Part shown: one piece after another, positions 5,848 through 60,443 of the stretch | Layout of the letters: each line of letters begins with the position of its first letter | Position numbering within the stretch: the first letter of the stretch is position 1 | Program-made: the position numbers and the translations under genes | Notes under the pieces: model-generated | Database searches by the model: none | The model's input: only the letters and a program-made list of their open reading frames with translations | What the model was told of the DNA's origin: nothing | Assembly (NCBI GenBank): GCA_001661245.1 | Contig: KV454013.1 | Coordinates: forward strand, 439,981-503,980 | DNA length: 64,000 nucleotides | Reading direction: 5' to 3' | Source: Pachysolen tannophilus NRRL Y-2460 | Taxonomy: Eukaryota

Positions 5848-6698
5848 CTAATCAATTCACAAAAAATTAACCGCCATTGTTAGAAATCTGATTAAAAAAA
5901 AAAAATTAATTATAATTATAATTATAATTATAATAATAATTTACATTCCGTCATCTTCATACACGTTTTAATGTGTATTTTTTTTAATTCATCTTGGTAA
6001 TAATTACCGTTTATTTCTTCACCCTACCCTGAAGATCTATGAAACTAAAATACAATACAATATAAAAAAAAAAAGTAGATGCCTCCAATTAATTCACTAA
6101 GCGCCTTTTATAAAACTTTTTTTTAAAATGAAAAGAATATAAAAATCCCCCTCATACAAATAAGGAAAATTCAAAAATCAATTATTCATATTTAATCTTG
6201 TTTTAATGTTTAAAAACAAAATATCAACTTTTTAGTTGTTTTCTGTTTTGTGTTTGTGGTATTTAAAACTGTGAGATCAAAAAATTTCCTCAAATGGAAA
6301 TTGATTTTACAAACACGATTTTTTAAAGTTTTTTTCAAATTTTTTGAATTTTTTTTTTTCTTTTTTTTTCTCACCACAATTTTCAAAAGTTTTCATTATC
6401 ATAATTTTTACCGTTTTTGATCTAATGTAGAATTATTAAGGTACTTTCTTTCTTTTTAAGTCCTGTTTCGTTATCGGTACCAATAATTTTAAATCATTAA
6501 TATTAAAAAAAAAAAAAAAAAAATTTTTTTTTTTTTTTATAAGAAACTTTTATTTCATTAAAAGATATAGAAAAAGAGAAGGTTAAAAAATATATAGTTA
6601 AATAAATAGCTGTTTCAGATTGACAGACGGTACGAAAGAGTGTTTGAATAGTTGTTCCTGAGCTTGAAACTAATAGTAGAATAGTGGAAATAATCAAT

Positions 6699-8903
6699 AT
6701 GTCCTCGAAAAAAATTTTTCCAGGTGATAGTACCAATGGGTCCTCTGGACCTCCAGATTATGTTACTTTCAAGCCATGCCTGCATATTCAGCAAGTATTG
6801 GCATCGCAAGCCAGAGATACGGTTTTGAGAAATTATTCATTGGGGTTAAAAGTTTCATTGTTATCGTCAAATAAAGAAGTTAGTTATAAGAATTTAGAGA
6901 ATGGTACAATTGTTGATCATAAGAAAATTTTGAAATTGAGATCGAAGTTGTTGAAATGTAAGTCTTGTTCGAATAATTGCGGTTTATTATTTATGTGTTT
7001 GCAATGTTCGAATATTGGTTGTTTTAAAAGAAATCATGCTTTTAACCATGCTAAAAGCGCTGGACATGTTTTTGGTTAAGTTTTTTTTTTTTTTTTTTTT
7101 TCAAGCAAGAATCATCACTAACTGTTGCTGATGAACAGGTATCGAATCTAATAATGGCCATTTATACTGTTTTAGGTGTGGTGATTATGTTAGTGATCCG
7201 AAATTGGAGGAAGTTCGTATACTGCACATCAACAATTCAAATAATAATGGTAAGTAAAACTCAACACCGTTTTTTTTTNNNNNNNNNNNNNNNNNNNNNN
7301 NNNNNNNNNNNNNNNNNNNNNNNNNNNNNNNNNNNNNNNNNNNNNNNNNNNNNNNNNNNNNNNNNNNNNNNNNNNNNNNNNNNNNNNNNNNNNNNNNNNN
7401 NNNNNNNNNNNNNNNNNNNNNNNNNNNNNNNNNNNNNNNNNNNNNNNNNNNNNNNNNNNNNNNNNNNNNNNNNNNNNNNNNNNNNNNNNNNNNNNNNNNN
7501 NNNNNNNNNNNNNNNNNNNNNNNNNNNNNNNNNNNNNNNNNNNNNNNNNNNNNNNNNNNNNNNNNNNNNNNNNNNNNNNNNNNNNNNNNNNNNNNNNNNN
7601 NNNNNNNNNNNNNNNNNNNNNNNNNNNNNNNNNNNNNNNNNNNNNNNNNNNNNNNNTTTTTTTCTTTTTTTNTTTTTTTTTTTTTCTGTCTTCTTCTATA
7701 GGTGTTTCGACATGTGATACTGACAATGTTTTCTTACTTATAGTTCAAGGATTACAAGTATACCCAATTGAAACGGATAAAAAGAAAAAAGCATTGATTT
7801 TGTCTGATTCTCGTGCTCCAAGTTTAAGGGCATCGAGGGGATTACGTGGATTTGTTAATATGGGATCGACATGTTTCATGTCTGTTATCCTACAGACCTT
7901 AATTCATAACCCATTTATAAGAGACTATTATCTTTCAGGAAAGCATCTAGGTTGCGATAAAGAACCTCTTAGTTGTATTCCTTGTTGTATAGATGACATT
8001 TTTGCAGCATTTTATACCATGGATGAAAATAAAGGGTTTGGGCCAACTGCTTTATTGACCGCTGCATGGAAAGTTAAAAGATCATTAGCAGGATATACTG
8101 AACAAGATGCACATGAATTTTGGCAATTTTTATTAGATGAAATGCATAAGGCTGATATCTTATTATTGGAAAATAAAACTGAACAAAATAATCAAAAGAA
8201 AATTGAAAATGGTAATTCTGCAATTATTGATAAAAATGGGAAAAAAAATTCTCCACATGCTACTCCTTTAGATTGTCCTTGTATCACACATAGAACTTTT
8301 TCAGGGGAATTACAAAGTTCAATTACATGTTCTAAATGTAGAAAAGTTACAACTACAATTGATCCAATGTTAGATTTATCATTAGAAATTTTACAACAAA
8401 ATAGAAAAGTTGCAGGAAAATCATTACCACCCATAAGACAAATGAATCTCCTTGATTGTTTAAAAAGGTTTACAACACCGGAAAAGTTGGATGTATTATA
8501 CAACTGTAGCACTTGTGGTCACAAGACAATGGTTTATAAGCAGTTAAAAATTAAAAAATTACCACCAGTGCTAGGAATTCAATTAAAGAGGTTTGAACAT
8601 TTATCAACTTCAGCTAAGATTGAAACTCATGTTACATTCCCATTAATGTTGAATATGTACGATTATATTTTACATGATCATGATCATTTGGATAAAATTG
8701 AAACAGATTTAACATATGAGTTGTTTGCATTAGTTTGTCATATTGGATCAGTTAATACGGGTCACTATGTTTGTTTAGTGAAAAATAGAGACGGTAATTG
8801 GTTTAAATTTGACGATTCAAAAGTAACTTTAGTCTCAATTGATGAAGTCACAAGCACTAAAGCTTATTTGTTATATTATATTATACATGACTTATCTTCC
8901 TAA
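6699..8903 (+). CDS. UBP8: SAGA deubiquitinase Ubp8 (ZnF-UBP + USP domain); 3 exons
   Basis: join(6699..7074,7139..7249,7744..8903). Splicing gives CLQC..GC..H..GHVFGIESNNGHLYCFRC, then Cys box GFVNMGSTCFMS, QDAHEFW and His box HIGSVNTGHY. Intron 1 GTTAAG..CACTAAC..CAG; intron 2 GTAAGT..TACTGAC..TAG spans the N gap. Phases are consistent. Confidence 0.9.
7279..7656. other. Assembly gap (N run) inside UBP8 intron 2
   Basis: Run of n flanked by poly-T on both sides. Confidence 0.99.
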
Positions 8904-10362: not shown

Positions 10363-11952
10363 TCATTCCCTATTATTACCAGTAAAACCTCCTCCTCTTC
10401 TACCTCTGCTTCCTCTAACAAAACCACCTCTTCCTCTTCCTCTCCCTCCTCTTGAACCGTTTTTGGAGTTATAATGAGTTCTACTTGTGGAGAGCGATTC
10501 TGCACCATCGTTCGTGAATGATTTTTTGCCATTTGACAGGCCTTCATCTTGCTCACCTTGTTTTTGATTTTGAGATGAAATTGATATCTTCTTCATGTCA
10601 GAGCTAAGATCTTTTCTGTAGTTGAAATTGAAACCTTTTGCATGACACTCCATATTGAATTCACCATTATTTAAATTTAACACTAATGAACCAAGAGATA
10701 AATCACATAAATTAAAATGCCAAGTATTCTGGAAAGAAAGGTAATATAAATCATTCAACTGCCTTATTATTGATGTTAACTCTTTCTTTGGTGACTCATC
10801 AGTTTCAAGGGAATCTTTATTAGCATTTTGTTGTTTTTCCGGCAAGGTAAGTTTGATGGATAAAATTTCTTCATGATTACTTGTAGATACTGGGATTTTA
10901 TCATATACATCCAAGGCCAATGAAATATATTTTATCAGATTGTTGCGTTCATTTAAATCTTCAATGTTTTCCAATAATTTTATAAATTTTTCCTGTAATT
11001 TAAACCAAATAACGGATAATTTTAAACGGGACTCATTAAATTTTAATTTAAAGTTTTCAAAATTTGGATTTATAGATAACTCATTATAAGAAGATGGGTA
11101 TTTGAAATGTAAACCATTTGAGACGGTAAAATCCATTTTGAAAAAAATCGAAAGATGTTGCAATAATGGTTCTCTTGTTGGTGATTGATGTGTTATGAAA
11201 AATTTAACAGACTCGTCAAATGAATCTCTTTCAGAGCTATAATATTTAGTAAAATTATCTATTAATTTTCCCAATTGTAACATTGTCACCCATATGTTCC
11301 CCGGATCTCCAGAAACAGGTATAAGATCAATTTTCGTAGGATCACCTGGTATCTCGTATGAAGTCCCATGATGAAACAATTTATGATAAGACAAAGATCC
11401 ACCTAACCCTGTTAATAATATATTTGTACCATCTTTTGTCTTTATTTTATAAAAATGGTCTTCATCAATTATGAACAAATTGGGTATAGAATAAATTCCA
11501 TATTTAAACTTATTCAAGACTATAGAATCCTCACACATTCCACTAACAGTATATACCGGATAATCCAATTTTCTTTCACCTTTAAGGAAATAAGGCAATT
11601 CAGAAATCAATTGATTTTCCAAAATTTTTTTCAAATTTGTCTCGTTATTAGAAAGATGTTCAACATTATCTCCACTAACTTTGGACAATTTTGAAATAGA
11701 AGTTATCAAATCACTGGATAAAAGAGGAGAAAACTCAACAATATGTCTAAGATAAGATTCATGAATTCTATCTATACTATTTTCATCGAAAAACCCAAAA
11801 TTCCCCGTATGTATTATAATATCCGAACCATATTGCTTGGCCAAATCGTTGAGTTTTGATAACTCACCTCTGATCTCTGCTATCAACAAAATCTTTAACC
11901 CATTCTTATCAATTAACCTCGGCAGCGAAACTATAGGATAACCCGAAGACAT
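10363..11952 (-). CDS. Uncharacterised fungal calcineurin-like metallophosphoesterase-fold protein (DUF2433-like) with C-terminal RGG box
   Basis: 529 aa; ILLIAEIRG, IIHTGNFGFFD, YTVSGMCED, FITHQSPTREPLL, GLHFKY resemble the five metallophosphoesterase motif positions; tail SRGGRGRGRGGFVRGSRGRRGGG. Confidence 0.65.
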   Translation of the reverse strand: MSSGYPIVSLPRLIDKNGLKILLIAEIRGELSKLNDLAKQYGSDIIIHTGNFGFFDENSIDRIHESYLRHIVEFSPLLSSDLITSISKLSKVSGDNVEHLSNNETNLKKILENQLISELPYFLKGERKLDYPVYTVSGMCEDSIVLNKFKYGIYSIPNLFIIDEDHFYKIKTKDGTNILLTGLGGSLSYHKLFHHGTSYEIPGDPTKIDLIPVSGDPGNIWVTMLQLGKLIDNFTKYYSSERDSFDESVKFFITHQSPTREPLLQHLSIFFKMDFTVSNGLHFKYPSSYNELSINPNFENFKLKFNESRLKLSVIWFKLQEKFIKLLENIEDLNERNNLIKYISLALDVYDKIPVSTSNHEEILSIKLTLPEKQQNANKDSLETDESPKKELTSIIRQLNDLYYLSFQNTWHFNLCDLSLGSLVLNLNNGEFNMECHAKGFNFNYRKDLSSDMKKISISSQNQKQGEQDEGLSNGKKSFTNDGAESLSTSRTHYNSKNGSRGGRGRGRGGFVRGSRGRRGGGFTGNNRE

Positions 11953-12210
11953 TCTTTTCTCAAACTGTTATTCTGATTGTATGTATGTATGTATGTATTA
12001 TGATTATTATTTTATATATTGTATATTTATCTTTGACAGAGAGTTAATACGCCTTTATTTAAAAAGTTATACTAAAAAATCAACTTAAAAAAAAAAAAAA
12101 AAAAAATTAAAATACAAATTTTACAAAACAAATCACAACTACTATTATAAACATACAAATATATCGATATATATATATATATATATGATCTATATATGTT
12201 TCTGTTATAA

Positions 12211-13212
12211 ATGTCTTTAGTCCTATTTAAGCAATAATGGAGGATAAAATGAACAACTCTGAGAATCATCAAGTTAGTAAATTATCTTCAAAAATAAGTA
12301 AAACTACAAAAAAAAAAAAAAAAAAATAAAAATAAAAATAAAGATACATACCCATAATAATACGTAACTCCAGCCCAAAAATTTCGATATTATACGTTAA
12401 AATCATCAGATGGTATATCTGTTGATTTTTTGTTTTTAAACACGTTGGGATACTGTGCTTATCTTACGTCGTTATCATTGCAAGTTTATAACAATAATGT
12501 AAGAGACGAATTCCATCAGAAATATGATCATTACCCTTTGTTGAGTTATATTGATGTCATATATGCTCTGCATGGGTTGATATTGAATTTAGTAACAATT
12601 TCTCAGATTTTTTGTTCTGGATATAAAAGAACTGTTAGCAAAAGGGTTAGTTTTTTCACAAAATGTTTTTATTGTTTTTTTTTAGTTATTGTTGGTTTCC
12701 AATTATTATTAATCAGATCTCGAAAACTTTTATTACTTGAACTTGTGATAAACCTTTCATATATCAAAGTTTTGATTAGCTTTTTAAAATATTTACCTCA
12801 ACTAATGCATAATTATAAGAGAAAATCGTGCTCAGGTTTTTCTATAACTCAAATATGGCTCGACTTATGCGGAGGTACTTTTGCATTGCTGCAGTTGTTC
12901 TTGGATAACATTGTTGAGAATGACAGTAAGCTCAATTTGGAAGAATTACTAAATAATAAGGGGAAATTGGGATTGAGTCTAGTTACTTTCTTCTTTGATT
13001 CCGCTTTTTTAATTCAATATTATATCATCTATAAAAACTCGGCTCCTTTTGTACAGGACTTCAAGACTTCATTCCCACAACCACAGATATCTCAAAGCTT
13101 AGACTCACAGTCTCAGATACCATTACAGCCATTATCCTCGCCATTGTTGCCGTTGTCGTCATCGTCGGTGTCATCGTCGTTGTCGCACTCAAAACAGCAT
13201 CAACTTGTCTAG
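12211..13212 (+). pseudogene. ERS1: Cystinosin/Ers1 PQ-loop vacuolar cystine transporter, interrupted as assembled by an internal inversion (~12227-12389)
   Basis: Plus strand 12391-13212 encodes YTLKSSDGISVDFLFLN...KYLPQLMHNYKRKS...GKLGLSLVTFFFD..FLIQYY. The missing first helix SKFLGWSYVLLW/SCSFYPPLLL and an intron are on the minus strand at 12389-12227. As assembled, ATG 12211 reads MSLVLFKQ-stop. Confidence 0.85.
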
Positions 13213-18749: not shown

Positions 18750-19020
18750 AGTTTTCATTCAAATATACCCACCTAAAAGTATTCCCCCTCCCTTATAATC
18801 ATTAGCTACATATATAATAGTTTTACTATTTTCGCCAATAGGAGCATTTGAATATTTTATAAATTTTATTTGCATATCTGAACTCCAACAATTTCCTGTA
18901 GAAATCTTTTTATACATCTAAAAGTAGTAGTACTAGGAACCCCTAAAAAAAGAGAAAAAAAATCAAGTCAAAATTATATAAAAATATAGATATTATTTTA
19001 TTTCATTAGAACTTCAAATC

Positions 19021-19518
19021 ATGAGTTACTTTCTATTGAGACAGTCCTTGTTTGGAAATCAATTCCATCTTTCTACGAAACGTTTTGTTGCGAGGACGCC
19101 TTTAAGATTATCATTGACGAATTCATTGTACTCAAGAAATTTTACGTTATCTCTTACTAGATTAAATGAAAAGAGATCCACTTCAGCAAATGATCACAAT
19201 GATCACAACGAACAGCAACTATTAGAGAAAGAGATCAAGGAAAAGCACCATCAAAAGTTTTTAAAAGAAGAAATTAAATATGAGCATGAACATGAACATC
19301 CTAAGCCATACAATCCCCACGTAAGTAAAAAAGTGATTTATAAACTATAAAGTATTATTTCATTGACTAATTTTTTTTATATGTATTTTTGATTTTAGAG
19401 GGAATTTTACAGGACATTACTGAAACCTTTCCTGAAAGTTTTGGGAATAACAATGGTAACATATTATTCATTAATTTATTTGTGGGAGTATTTGGATAAG
19501 ACGTCAGATAAAAGTTAG
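19021..19518 (+). CDS. Small predicted mitochondrial single-pass membrane protein (possibly Ina17-like); 2 exons
   Basis: join(19021..19320,19399..19518). Intron GTAAGT..GACTAAT..TAG, phase 0. Arg/Ser/Leu-rich presequence-like N-terminus; exon 2 adds REFYRTLxKPFxKVLGITMVTYYSLIYLWEYL (x = CTG), a TM segment. Confidence 0.7.
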
Positions 19519-21638: not shown

Positions 21639-23242
21639 ATGGATTTGGTTCAGCCTTTTATATATTGCGGTGTATGCCATAAGGATGGAACGTATAATGA
21701 TGGAGATGGGAAAGCAGACCCCTTTTGGCTAACCTCATGTGCTCATATACTATGTAGGGAACATGTTGGTGGAAGTAAGGATTACAGTTATTGATCTAGA
21801 GAAATATGATGAAGATAATGGAAACGAGCTAACAGTGGCGATATGTTTATTTTTTTTTTCTGTTCTTCTTTTTTCTTTGCTTAGAAATGTTGAGACCTGC
21901 AGATTTGGAAAGATTGAGAATAAGATGTCCAGTTTGTCAAACACAGGAAGTTTCTGTGGTGAGATTATCAAATAACGTATGTATCAGTCCTGTTATTGAT
22001 GAGCTATATGAATGATTGAGGGTATCTAACTTTTTTTTTTTTTTCTTTTTTTTTTTTTGCAAAACAATATAGTTGCCAGGAGACTTGAAACCTTATTTTA
22101 AACCATTCCCATCTCAAATTGAAGCATTATTTGCTGCTGCTCAATTTCAATACTGTGGTATGGCAGAGTTGATATCTCATCAAAAAAAATTTATTGATAA
22201 ATTGTTTAATAAGATTGACAAACAGAAGCAGTTATTATATGCAGCAAAAGCAGAAGTTTCACAAGTTGAAGATTTAAAAATTAAAATGACAAATCTTGAA
22301 AAACTGAACTTGATGCTAAATAAAGAACTACAAAATATTAAATTGGGATATCAAAATGAAAGACAAGGTGGTAATAGTCAATTTAGTAGTTCAATAGCAT
22401 CTATAACAAATAGAAAAATAACTCCTTCTCGACCGGAAACAGTTGATTTGACCCATTTTGATGATGAAAATGAACAAGATAACAGTGATAACAATAATCC
22501 GAAAAATCATGAAACTTTTATAAGAAAAATTCAGCAAAGCTCCACATTGAAGAAGATTCCAACAAGCTCGCAGCAACAGCAACGTCTACAGCTCCACCAA
22601 CCTTCATTTCTAACACTTTCATCTACTGCTCACAGTCAAGATAAGAATTTACATATCTCAACTGGCACTGGCACTGGTACTGGCCGTCTTGGAAATATCA
22701 GAGCAGCTACTGATCAGCAGCGGTATTACAATAGTGATGAATCAGGTTTGGATAATGAGTTTAATAATTCAGGTTTAAATAATACCTTAAAACCAATTAT
22801 GGCAGAATCTACAAATCTTTTCCATTCTCCATTTATGAATAATCAAAATAAAATATCAAATAATGGAAGCGGTAATACAAGTAGTACAACCACAAACTCT
22901 AGCTTATCAGGTAGACAGACAAACAATAACTTAATTGTCAATAGATCAGCATCAATGAGCCCTCTAACTAGTCATGGAAAAACTTCTTTAGAAGGTAACT
23001 TACTGTTAAATAATAATAAACTATCAACGATACCTAGGAACAATAACATTAATCCGAAGAAACCTGGTAACAATAGCATAAGGAATAGATCAGCTACTAC
23101 ACAGAATATCGTTCAAAGATTAACATCTCATATGAAAGTTGGTGGAGGAAATAAAAATCAAGTTACGTTAAATACAACTAACGGTAGGTTAGGAACAACT
23201 AATAACTCAAATAATAGATCACCGCTTCCCAAGAGAAATTAA
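21639..23242 (+). CDS. CST9: Meiotic RING-finger SUMO E3 ligase Zip3/Cst9; 3 exons
   Basis: join(21639..21774,21885..21976,22073..23242). Splicing gives MDLVQPFIYCGVCH..FWLTSCAHILCREH..RCPVCQ..LPGDLKPYF..AQFQ, matching the Cst9 RING. Introns GTAAGG..GCTAAC..TAG and GTATGT..TCTAAC..TAG. Position next to COX8 matches S. cerevisiae. Confidence 0.88.
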
Positions 23243-31353: not shown

Positions 31354-31833
31354 TTATAACTTCTTTTCGTGATCTAAAAGAATATCTTTCAATTCTAATA
31401 CACATTTCTTTATAGCATCATTATAACTTTCTTTCTTACATTTAGTAAATGCCAATGATTTTGAAGGTAAATTATGAGATTTAGCTATACCCACCGATTC
31501 ATGAAATGTACCATCTTTCAAAGTTAACCTTACAATTGTCGTCATTTGCATCGAATACCGATTTTCTTCTACATTCTCATCAAACAGTATTATCTCATTA
31601 CCAACAATCTGTGTAGACCAACCATCAAACCCAAACGATTCATTACACAAATTTAACACCGTGGTTAAACTCAATTTTTGAAAAGCAAATCCGTAATTAT
31701 TAAACCTCGCCTTATTATAATTTAGCAAATTGTCCAACTTCAAATTCAATGTACCTATTTTCAGAATTGACCACTCTGAAACTGGTACATCTTGGTCTAT
31801 CAACGTCTCACTAAAATCATCATATGTTATCAT
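31354..31833 (-). CDS. RAD59: Rad52-family DNA annealing protein Rad59
   Basis: 159 aa consisting only of the Rad52/22 N-terminal domain: WS..KIGTL, NESFGFDGWST, VRLTLKDGT, KCKKES. Confidence 0.85.
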   Translation of the reverse strand: MITYDDFSETLIDQDVPVSEWSILKIGTLNLKLDNLLNYNKARFNNYGFAFQKLSLTTVLNLCNESFGFDGWSTQIVGNEIILFDENVEENRYSMQMTTIVRLTLKDGTFHESVGIAKSHNLPSKSLAFTKCKKESYNDAIKKCVLELKDILLDHEKKL

Positions 31834-32079
31834 ACTACTGATCTTTCTGATCTCTCTTTCTCCTTTGGTGTTTATAATTTAAATTGCTAAAACCTTTTGT
31901 TTTTGCTAATTTTTTATTTTCTTTTACTATTTTAAATTGATGATGTCCCCGCAAAACAAGATCATGAATAATTTTTAAATAAATTAAATACTTAAACGAT
32001 AATAAATCCTCATTAGAATTGATTGATATTTTATTGAGATATCACACTTGATGGTAAGGTGTTGTAATTGTAATTGGTT

Positions 32080-35023: not shown

Positions 35024-36319
35024 ATGTTGAAGTTTGAAGAATATCTAGTTGACAGTTTTAACGTGTTTGATTTCAGTTGTAATGTGGACTTGCTGAAACA
35101 AATTTTAAATATAATAGCTCCTGATTTTAAAGGTAATTTAACCGAAGAACTTTTTGTGAATAATGAATTGGCTATTCTAGGATCTGGTAAGGAATTATGG
35201 CAACAGTTTTACCTCAAGGATTTGAAGACAATGCAAATTGTTTGTTCATTTAGGATAATAGTTAAAAATGGGTTTAAAGTTGTAAAGTGTAAGAAACAGT
35301 CGGATGGTAAAGTGAAATTTTTATTGATGACCCTAGTGCATACACATCCTGACTATAGAAAGATGGGACTTCTCCAACGCTTTATCTCTTCAGTAATGGA
35401 AAATTATCAAAATGAACTTCTGAGTTTGGGTGAAGAAGTTGAATTTTCTTTGCAATCGTTAAAAGAAACAGATTTTGAAATTTATTGGTACTTGTATTCA
35501 GTAATTGATCAATACTACAAGAAATTTGGTTTTCAATCATTTGATATGGAATGGTTGGTATTTGATAAGGTTTACGAGGATGGTTTGATTACATTAGTCG
35601 AGAAGGATAAGAAGGATAAAAGAAATTATAATGATGATATGGAATTGATATCATTACTTTATGCCAAACACTTTCCAAAGACTGTACAGAGATTATTAAC
35701 AAGTGAAAAATATTTGTCATTTGAGAATTTTGAAGGTGATAACAATATTTCTGTTAGTTTTCAAAACCACAGTTTAGACTTTTTCTTTGATAGAGATAAT
35801 TTGATTTGTAACGAATTCAATGCTGGTGAACCAAATAGAGATAGAAGTATAGGTTTAATCATAAAACATTCACACATTGGTAAAGAAACTTTTGTGCTTT
35901 TTTCCTGTGATTTAATATGTTCTGGATTATTGTTATCAAAGCTTTTCACAAATTTAGATTCAAATATTAGGGTTGAAAGAAAACTAATCACTAATGATAT
36001 GGATATAATAGTAAGTCACGTTATCAAGACCTATTTGAAAAATTTCAATTTTTTAGTTAATCATCCAATGTTTGATAAGAATTTTTCCAAAAATTTAAAA
36101 ATTTCCATCACCAAAGCTGATGTTGTTGCAAAAGATAGAGAAACTAAAGATTTTATAGTCAACGAACTACTTAATAATATTTTTTTAAAGAATGGATCAT
36201 GGAAACTAGTTCAAAGTAATGAAACGCATTTTTTGCCCATGATGAAAAAAGCAGATGAAGAATTTGGAAATAAAAATACTTTGAAATGGATAAACAATGG
36301 AATTTGGTGTTTTGGATAA
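35024..36319 (+). CDS. Putative GNAT-family N-acetyltransferase (Lyc1/YGR111W-like)
   Basis: LVHTHPDYRKMGL (acetyl-CoA motif A) and LYSVIDQYYKKFGF (motif B); C-terminal LPMM..WINNGIWCFG. Confidence 0.65.
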   Translation: MLKFEEYLVDSFNVFDFSCNVDLLKQILNIIAPDFKGNLTEELFVNNELAILGSGKELWQQFYLKDLKTMQIVCSFRIIVKNGFKVVKCKKQSDGKVKFLLMTLVHTHPDYRKMGLLQRFISSVMENYQNELLSLGEEVEFSLQSLKETDFEIYWYLYSVIDQYYKKFGFQSFDMEWLVFDKVYEDGLITLVEKDKKDKRNYNDDMELISLLYAKHFPKTVQRLLTSEKYLSFENFEGDNNISVSFQNHSLDFFFDRDNLICNEFNAGEPNRDRSIGLIIKHSHIGKETFVLFSCDLICSGLLLSKLFTNLDSNIRVERKLITNDMDIIVSHVIKTYLKNFNFLVNHPMFDKNFSKNLKISITKADVVAKDRETKDFIVNELLNNIFLKNGSWKLVQSNETHFLPMMKKADEEFGNKNTLKWINNGIWCFG

Positions 36320-59861: not shown

Positions 59862-60146
59862 ATTGTATTTGTCTTGTTCAGTTGATTATAATAGTTAATA
59901 CCACTGTAATCGCTGTTTAACATATATATCTCTTAAAACGAAGAAAAAAAACTACTTAAAAATTGAATAATTTTGGTTGGCTAATAAAAAGTCGTTGCTC
60001 CAAAAACTAATTTCCGTATTAGGAAATAACAGAAATTGGAAGTTAAAATTAAAATTAAAAAAAAAAATTTTTCCATTGATAATCAAAAGTAGTGTCTGCA
60101 AAGCTAAAAATGTAGAGAGTAGTGTAAATAAGTAAAAAACTGTAAT

Positions 60147-60243
60147 GGTGTAGGGGGTATGTAAGTGGTGTACGTGGTGTTGGAGGTGTAGATGGTGCAA
60201 ATGGTGTAAAAATGTAAGAAATCTAAGTGGTGTGAGTGGTGTG
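60147..60243 (-). repeat. Intergenic array of GGTGY motifs (RCACC on the minus strand), five at a 9-bp period
   Basis: GGTG at 60147, 60167, 60176, 60185, 60194, 60203, 60229 and 60238. Confidence 0.75.
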
Positions 60244-60443
60244 GTATGTATGTTTTTTTCTTGGGTTGATAAAAAGGGGTAACGGGCCAGACTCTTTCCT
60301 ATCAACAGCTAATATTAAGAATTACAACTACGAATTACATAAAACGAGTGATACAAATAAACAAGCCTAGATATTAAATAAAGAAGTCACAAATGAAGAA
60401 AAATAAAAGATAAAAATTAGAAAAAAATAATAAAAAAAAAAGA

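What the first reader, a model, noticed from the sequence alone, without database searches (positions are those of the whole stretch)
12227..12389. Clean ~162-bp inversion flips the first helix and a whole intron of ERS1 (cystinosin)
Seen: the minus strand of this segment reads tcg aaa ttt ttg ggc tgg agt tac gta tta tta tgg, then an intron (GTATGT at 12351, TACTAAC, CAG ending at 12259), then agt tgt tca ttt tat cct cca tta ttg ctt aa. The flanks are plus-strand coding: ATG TCT TTA GTC CTA at 12211 and TAT ACG TTA AAA TCA at 12391. Re-inverting 12227-12389 and splicing the 93-nt intron gives an uninterrupted 302-aa protein, MSLVLLSKFLGWSYVLLWSCSFYPPLLLNYTLKSSDGISVDF..., the canonical cystinosin N-terminus, with no base gained or lost (12226-12390 also restores the frame). 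As assembled the gene stops after 8 codons. No flanking inverted repeat longer than 1-2 bp is present and the rest of the ORF shows no decay. Inference: a very recent loss-of-function micro-inversion, a polymorphic or switchable allele, or a local mis-assembly or edit. The missing inverted repeats argue against a classical recombinase switch.
Basis: seen in the sequence. Interest (0 to 1): 0.85.

Follow-up and report, generated by a model that had tools for sequence, protein, structure and literature searches.

The report
Flipped gene start is assembly error
A 163-base piece at the start of a yeast cystine-transporter gene lies back to front in the public Pachysolen tannophilus reference genome, but sequencing data from two studies show it the right way round, so this is a reference error and not biology.

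Summary
Window 12227-12389 (163 bases) carries, on the minus strand, most of exon 1, a canonical 93-nt intron and the start of exon 2 of a cystinosin/ERS1-type gene. Its ATG (12211) and the rest of its body (12390-13212) lie on the plus strand. Flipping the piece back gives an open 302-aa protein whose N-terminus aligns with fungal cystinosin relatives.

The organism is Pachysolen tannophilus NRRL Y-2460. The flip is in the public assembly, not an edit of the window. The deposited gene model PACTADRAFT_2247 is letter for letter the translation of the flipped form, with a made-up 20-residue N-terminus and a made-up 112-nt intron.

Contigs built from public reads disagree with the assembly. In 4 of 4 runs laid (two samples, two studies), contigs join the flanks to the piece in the intact orientation. 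None carries the window's junctions. No inverted repeat flanks the breakpoints, and no recombinase family was found in the 29 window ORFs scanned.

Verdict: a local error in the reference assembly that also corrupted one gene model. The gene is intact in bulk DNA. It is neither a pseudogene nor a switch. Interest is low, apart from curation.

The parts
12211..12226 (+). True start of the cystinosin/ERS1-type gene: the ATG and the first 16 nt of exon 1, correctly oriented in the window.
   Evidence: In all 4 runs a 213-214-nt contig continues from 12226/12227 into the minus strand of 12389/12388.
12227..12389 (.). The 163-base piece that lies reverse-complemented in the reference assembly relative to read-derived contigs.
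   Evidence: joints on opposite strands, 12227->12390 (X4, X5) and 12228->12389 (X1, X3), with one ambiguous base; flipping it restores a 302-aa frame.
12352..12389 (-). Remaining 38 nt of exon 1 (encodes SKFLGWSYVLLW, part of the first membrane helix).
   Evidence: It aligns with VLGWTYVLCW of P0004.
12259..12351 (-). 93-nt spliceosomal intron: GTATGT donor, TACTAAC branch site 14 nt before the 3' end, CAG acceptor, 84% A+T, with a T19 run.
12227..12258 (-). First 32 nt of exon 2 (encodes SCSFYPPLLL, the start of the first PQ-loop).
   Evidence: It aligns with SASFYPQPIS of P0004 and SISFYPPIEL of P0002.
12390..13212 (+). Rest of exon 2 to the stop codon. It holds the PQ-loop repeats and is correctly oriented.
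   Evidence: PF04193, E 1.8e-21, 2 stretches; human cystinosin 8dke, E 1.4e-21; 99% identity to P0001.
12237..12409 (+). Spurious part of the public gene model PACTADRAFT_2247: a false first exon at 12237-12297 (MEDKMNNSENHQVSKLSSKI) and a false 112-nt intron at 12298-12409 (GTAAAA...CAG). Both are read from the wrong strand of the flipped piece.
   Evidence: translating 12237-12297 plus 12410-13212 under code 26 equals P0001 exactly (287 aa).

Best explanation
The inversion is a local error of the public reference assembly of Pachysolen tannophilus NRRL Y-2460, or of the molecules behind it. The assembly is named GCA_001661245.1 in a paper. That the window comes from it is inferred from the gene model, not shown. 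The inversion is not the state of the yeast's genome. In bulk DNA the gene is an intact, two-exon cystinosin/ERS1-type PQ-loop transporter gene of 302 codons with a 93-nt intron in the first PQ-loop. The error made the annotators' pipeline invent a false first exon and a false intron, so the deposited protein lacks its real first 35 residues (the first helix and the start of the first PQ-loop). Shown here: the flip is in the public record, and the reads' contigs have the intact order. Inferred: that the assembler or a gap-closing step produced the flip. How it did so could not be determined.
For: (1): 4 of 4 runs were laid (X1, X3, X4 from one sample; X5 from another sample and study). In each, a contig of 788-1223 nt joins window 12227/8-12293 to 12389/90-12900 on opposite strands. 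It has 66-67 and 511-512 letters on the two sides, no other letters and no gaps, at depth 168, 159, 120 and 91. A second contig of 213-214 nt joins 12200-12226/7 to 12358-12388/9 on opposite strands. These are exactly the two junctions of the flipped-back form. No piece bridges 12226|12227 or 12389|12390 in the window's order. (2): the public model P0001 equals the translation of the flipped form, so the flip is in the deposited assembly and not in the window alone. (3): the flipped-back form gives a complete protein, colinear across both junctions with relatives P0004 (35% identity, E 3e-45) and P0002 (52%, E 4e-85), and no base is gained or lost. (4) ('both' = 1): no inverted repeat or microhomology that a recombinase could use. 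(5): 25 of the 29 window ORFs scanned match Pfam families, and none is a recombinase or transposase family. (6) (passages of PMC13232491): the assembly has contig N50 in the 10^4 bin and under 2% N, so it is a fragmented short-read draft.
Against: The runs are held as contigs, which drop rare variants. A minority of molecules with the flipped form cannot be excluded (tool note). At the left junction only 27-28 letters are laid on one side, below the tool's 31-letter rule for bridging, because the rest of that contig falls in skipped low-complexity sequence. The breakpoints lie in unique sequence with no repeat, which is unusual for a graph-traversal error, and I could not show how an assembler would make such a flip. 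I could not confirm that sample S1 is the DNA the assembly was built from. The assembly paper (Riley et al. 2016) is not held.
Confidence: 0.87

Rival explanations
1. A real micro-inversion, for example a replication template-switch event. It would be private to the DNA preparation or clone the reference was assembled from, or present as a minority of cells. It would be a null allele of the transporter gene that is not fixed in the strain.
For: The breakpoints are clean, in unique sequence, with at most 1 base of ambiguity and no base gained or lost. That is how in-place template-switch inversions look (recalled: the four-point model of Loytynoja and Goldman, named in an earlier finding listed; not read here). 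Contigs cannot exclude rare variants.
Against: 4 of 4 runs from two samples and two studies show only the intact junctions. Their contigs run through the junctions without a break, which argues against a second form at appreciable frequency. An assembler would not normally choose a rare form over a form at about 100-fold depth (inference).
Confidence: 0.1
2. A programmed, reversible inversion that switches the transporter gene on and off.
For: The flip is exact and would switch the gene off. The species does use a large flip-flop inversion for mating-type switching (passage in PMC5499181), but that is at another locus with long repeats.
Against: There are no inverted repeats at the breakpoints ('both' = 1). 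No recombinase family was found among the 29 ORFs scanned in the window. Only one orientation is seen, in 4 of 4 runs.
Confidence: 0.01
3. A fixed pseudogene: the yeast has truly lost the gene through this inversion.
For: As assembled, the frame stops after 8 codons.
Against: Read contigs of 4 of 4 runs carry the intact form. The rest of the frame shows no decay and is 52-57% identical to relatives over 180-233 residues.
Confidence: 0.02

Closest known systems
Cystinosin / yeast ERS1 family (PQ-loop cystine transporters; solved human cystinosin 8dke, plant homologue 7zk1)
   Same: The gene body matches Pfam PQ-loop PF04193 (E 1.8e-21, 2 stretches). It matches solved cystinosins over query residues 4-227 (E 1.4e-21). 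The flipped-back N-terminus aligns with the first helix and first PQ-loop of a fungal L-cystine transporter.
   Different: Nothing unusual once the piece is flipped back. It has a 93-nt intron inside the first PQ-loop and a Ser/Pro/Leu-rich C-terminal tail. Transport was not tested.
Local mis-assembly (small inversion) in a draft short-read assembly
   Same: The reference record and contigs rebuilt from reads disagree in the orientation of a short block. The assembly is a fragmented draft. An assembly gap of 378 N lies 4.6 kb away.
   Different: The breakpoints are not in repeats or at gaps and have no flanking inverted repeat, so the usual cause, an ambiguous path between inverted repeats, does not apply. 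My literature search for a documented artefact of this kind found nothing usable.
Site-specific DNA inversion switches (Hin/Gin/Cin/Pin type) and the flip-flop MAT inversion of methylotrophic yeasts
   Same: A segment that sits in the opposite orientation and would switch a gene off.
   Different: No inverted-repeat crossover sites, no recombinase gene found nearby, and only one orientation in the reads' contigs.
Short-range template-switch mutations (in-place micro-inversions)
   Same: Size range, clean breakpoints, and no loss or gain of bases.
   Different: The flipped form is not seen in any of the 4 runs laid, so there is no evidence that it exists as DNA in the organism.

Membership tests
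Cystinosin / ERS1 (PQ-loop family, PF04193) | Two PQ-loop repeats | tested here: met
   PF04193, E 1.8e-21, 76 bits against a cutoff of 22, 2 stretches in the plus-strand ORF 12361-13209. The start of the first repeat lies on the flipped piece.
Cystinosin / ERS1 (PQ-loop family, PF04193) | Sequence similarity to experimentally solved cystinosins over most of the membrane domain | tested here: met
   8dke E 1.4e-21 (query 4-227, chain 153-369); 7zk1 E 8.1e-18.
Cystinosin / ERS1 (PQ-loop family, PF04193) | Complete N-terminal first helix plus first PQ-loop, colinear with relatives | tested here: met
   the flipped-back protein aligns from residue 6 with P0004 (from its residue 15) and from residue 19 with P0002 (from its residue 3). 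This holds only for the flipped-back order, which is the order in the read contigs.
Cystinosin / ERS1 (PQ-loop family, PF04193) | Seven membrane helices and proton-coupled cystine export | not tested
   No topology prediction or fold was run. Transport needs an experiment.
Recombinase-driven invertible DNA switch | Inverted-repeat crossover sites at both breakpoints | tested here: not met
   of 53 inverted pairs in 12100-12520 the tool listed the 25 longest, and none of those has its arms at 12226/12227 and 12389/12390; 1 base of ambiguity at the joint.
Recombinase-driven invertible DNA switch | Recombinase gene nearby | tested here: not met
   29 ORFs of the 64-kb window were scanned against Pfam. 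25 have families and none is a recombinase, integrase or transposase family. ORFs under 110 aa were not scanned.
Recombinase-driven invertible DNA switch | Both orientations present in DNA of a culture | tested here: inconclusive
   only the intact orientation appears in the contigs of 4 of 4 runs, but contigs drop rare variants.
Real micro-inversion allele (template switch) | Flipped junctions present in sequencing reads of the organism | tested here: not met
   no contig with the window's junctions in 4 of 4 runs. Raw reads were not available.

The most novel reading that the evidence does not exclude
The flipped form is real DNA: a clean, repeat-free, in-place 163-base template-switch inversion that knocks out the cystine exporter. 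On this reading it was present in the particular culture or clone that gave the reference assembly, and absent or rare in the stocks sequenced in the four runs laid. That would make it a caught-in-the-act spontaneous micro-inversion in a laboratory yeast stock.
Probability: 0.08. Interest if true: 0.3.

Novelty: not a real feature. Interest (0 to 1): 0.1.

Why it matters
The biology is ordinary, because the gene is intact. The practical value is curation. The public reference of the CUG-Ala yeast Pachysolen tannophilus carries a 163-base flipped block. The deposited protein PACTADRAFT_2247 (listed by UniRef as cystinosin) therefore has a false 20-residue N-terminus and lacks its first membrane helix. 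Anyone using that protein for alignments, intron surveys, gene-loss calls or structure prediction inherits the error. The case also shows that a clean, repeat-free micro-inversion in a draft assembly should not be read as a pseudogene or a switch before the reads are checked.

Tried and rejected
- **Own genome:** no whole genome is held for this window, so other flips elsewhere in the assembly could not be sought.
- **RNA:** no RNA holder listed, so splicing and expression could not be checked.
- **Parts without cover:** 11700-12191 and 12315-12355 had no laid cover in any run. The tool skipped the repeats at 11970-12199 and 12294-12357. These holes prove nothing.
- **Share of words:** 0.90-0.91 in the five holders. 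Loss of the junction words would account for about 6 of 134 sampled words by my arithmetic, but the rest may be low-complexity sequence. I do not use this as evidence.
- **Open-frame control:** 1134 of 10320 arbitrary inversions gave an open frame under a loose splice rule, so 'frame restored' was dropped as an argument on its own.
- **Assembly method:** Riley et al. 2016 is not held by DOI or by the PMC id I recalled. Liu et al. 2012 is not held. The cause of the flip therefore stays unknown.
- **Supplements of PMC4937558:** none readable. Their gene predictions on the independent CAHV01 assembly might show the intact N-terminus.
- **Literature:**, 111 papers held at least two of my terms (misassembly, small inversions, ALLPATHS-LG), and 12 were listed. 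I opened one, PMC4580222, and it has no occurrence of 'inversion' or 'inverted'. I do not claim that such artefacts are undocumented.
- **Earlier findings:** none for this genome, none for the narrow word set, and 29 for 'inversion assembly artefact', of which 8 were shown.
- **Other broken genes in the window:** a coarse Pfam look at 29 ORFs showed none, apart from the one cut by the N gap. This test would miss small flips outside conserved domains.
- **A planted edit of the window:** rejected, because the public protein matches the flipped form exactly.

Full report
**1. The observation.**
- An ATG at 12211 opens a frame that stops after 8 codons as assembled.
- The minus strand of 12227-12389 carries three things in order: 38 nt of coding sequence (12389 down to 12352), a 93-nt intron (12351 down to 12259), and a further 32 nt of coding sequence (12258 down to 12227). 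The intron has GTATGT, TACTAAC 14 nt before its end, and CAG, and is 84% A+T.
- From 12390 the plus strand carries an open frame to the stop at 13210-13212.
- Reverse-complementing 12227-12389 (163 bases) and removing the intron gives a 302-aa frame. Flipping 12228-12388 gives the identical sequence. Flipping 12226-12390 keeps the frame but alters two residues.

An open frame alone is not strong evidence. Under a loose splicing rule, 1134 of 10320 arbitrary inversions around this spot also gave an open frame. Homology is what settles it.
- The flipped-back protein aligns colinearly from residue 6 with a Sporormia L-cystine transporter (P0004, 35% identity, E 3e-45).
- It aligns from residue 19 with a closer relative (P0002, 52% identity, E 4e-85).
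- Both alignments run across the junctions.

**2. What the gene is.**
- The plus-strand body matches the Pfam PQ-loop family (PF04193, E 1.8e-21, two stretches).
- It matches solved cystinosins (8dke, E 1.4e-21; 7zk1, E 8.1e-18).
- The best database hit, at 99% identity, is PACTADRAFT_2247 of Pachysolen tannophilus NRRL Y-2460, listed by UniRef as cystinosin.
- This yeast reads CTG as alanine. P0001 shows A where the standard code gives L, and code 26 reproduces P0001 exactly.

**3. Where the flip lives.**
The deposited protein P0001 (287 aa) begins MEDKMNNSENHQVSKLSSKI, which has no counterpart in relatives. Translating window 12237-12297 plus 12410-13212 under code 26 gives P0001 letter for letter. 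The implied intron is 112 nt, GTAAAA...CAG. The public gene model was therefore built on the flipped form. The flip is in the public assembly and was not introduced into the window. The assembly is named in a paper as GCA_001661245.1, LZCH01, 12.6 Mb, contig N50 in the 10^4 bin, under 2% N, credited to Riley et al. 2016 (passages seen).

**4. What the reads say.**
Five public runs hold the stretch: X1-X4 from one sample and study, and X5 from another sample and study. None is RNA. I laid X1, X3, X4 and X5, which are held as Logan contigs.

| Junction | Contig in each of the 4 runs | Letters laid on the two sides |
|---|---|---|
| Right | 788-1223 nt, joins 12227/8-12293 to 12389/90-12900 on opposite strands | 66-67 and 511-512 |
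| Left | 213-214 nt, joins 12200-12226/7 to 12358-12388/9 on opposite strands | 27-28 and 31-32 |

- The right-junction contigs have no other letters and no gaps, at depth 168, 159, 120 and 91.
- The left-junction contigs have depth 101, 85, 67 and 38. One side is below the tool's 31-letter rule because the rest of the contig lies in skipped low-complexity sequence.
- These are exactly the two junctions of the flipped-back gene.
- No piece carries the window's own junctions.
- If both forms were present at comparable levels, I would expect contigs to end at the junctions rather than run through them (inference).
- Contigs drop rare variants, so a small minority of flipped molecules is not excluded.

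**5. Against a biological switch.**
- Of 53 inverted pairs in 12100-12520, the 25 longest were listed, and none of those has arms at the breakpoints. They are low-complexity A/T matches.
- The joints have one ambiguous base.
- Of 29 ORFs scanned in the 64-kb window, 25 match Pfam families, all ordinary housekeeping genes. They include glucan synthase, a ubiquitin hydrolase, an AMPK beta subunit, a kinesin, ELP1, MFE-2, MCM3 and CCT. None is a recombinase.
- The species' known flip-flop inversion concerns the mating-type loci (passage in PMC5499181) and has no bearing here.

**6. Explanation.**
Most likely (0.87) the block is a local error of the reference assembly or of the molecules behind it. 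In the organism the gene is an intact two-exon cystinosin/ERS1-type transporter gene.
- Shown: the record has the flip, and the reads' contigs from two samples do not.
- Inferred: that an assembly or gap-closing step made the flip.

I could not find the mechanism. The breakpoints are in unique sequence, with no gap and no repeat, which is odd for a graph error. The assembly paper is not held.

Rivals:
- A real but private or minority template-switch inversion in the assembled DNA (0.10).
- A fixed pseudogene (0.02), contradicted.
- A programmed switch (0.01).

**7. Comparison and novelty.**
The gene is an ordinary member of the cystinosin/PQ-loop family by every feature I could test. Topology and transport were not tested. 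The inversion is not a real feature of the genome as far as the data go. Its value is as a correction. The public protein lacks its real first 35 residues and carries 20 false ones. The true intron (93 nt, canonical signals) is replaced in the model by a false one.

**8. Limits.**
- Only contigs were available, not raw reads.
- The link between sample S1 and the assembly is unknown.
- There was no RNA.
- The independent CAHV01 assembly could not be reached.
- The supplements of PMC4937558 could not be read.

Noticed in passing
window 7279-7656 and 7672: A run of 378 N plus a single N sits inside a ubiquitin-hydrolase gene. It separates the zf-UBP finger (6648-7076, profile cut at 40 of 63) from the UCH domain (7674-8900). 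It is probably an assembly gap of this draft, so that gene model is incomplete too.
   Followed up: partly
window 12237-12409: The public protein PACTADRAFT_2247 (P0001) has a false 20-residue N-terminus and a false 112-nt intron with a GTAAAA donor. Both are read from the wrong strand of the flipped block.
   Followed up: yes
window 11960-12200 and 12294-12357: There is very low-complexity sequence around the gene start: (TGTA)n, an A run of about 27, (TA)n, and A19 inside the intron. The read contigs of all four runs break there. The flipped block sits between and across these tracts, which may bear on how the error arose.
   Followed up: no
window 12361-13212: The two in-frame CTG codons of this gene appear as Ala in the deposited protein (AAHG, ALAQ) and as Leu under the standard code. 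This is the CUG-Ala code of Pachysolen.
   Followed up: partly
other genomes (earlier findings e1-7379206, e1-635428): Two earlier findings of this scan describe flipped pieces of almost the same size inside genes of other genomes: 165 and 166 bases, against 163 here. This may be coincidence or a shared artefact or mechanism. I did not examine it.
   Followed up: no
window 22073-23239, 35024-36316, 18982-19347, 59955-60308: Four ORFs of 118-431 aa have no Pfam family at E 1e-5. The 118-aa one (59955-60308, minus strand) is His/Leu-repetitive and may not be a gene.
   Followed up: no
window 31357-31878 (-): A short (174 aa) Rad52/Rad22-family ORF covers profile positions 2-130 of 153. From recall it resembles Rad59 rather than Rad52. 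It lies next to ELP1 and the MFE-2 gene.
   Followed up: no
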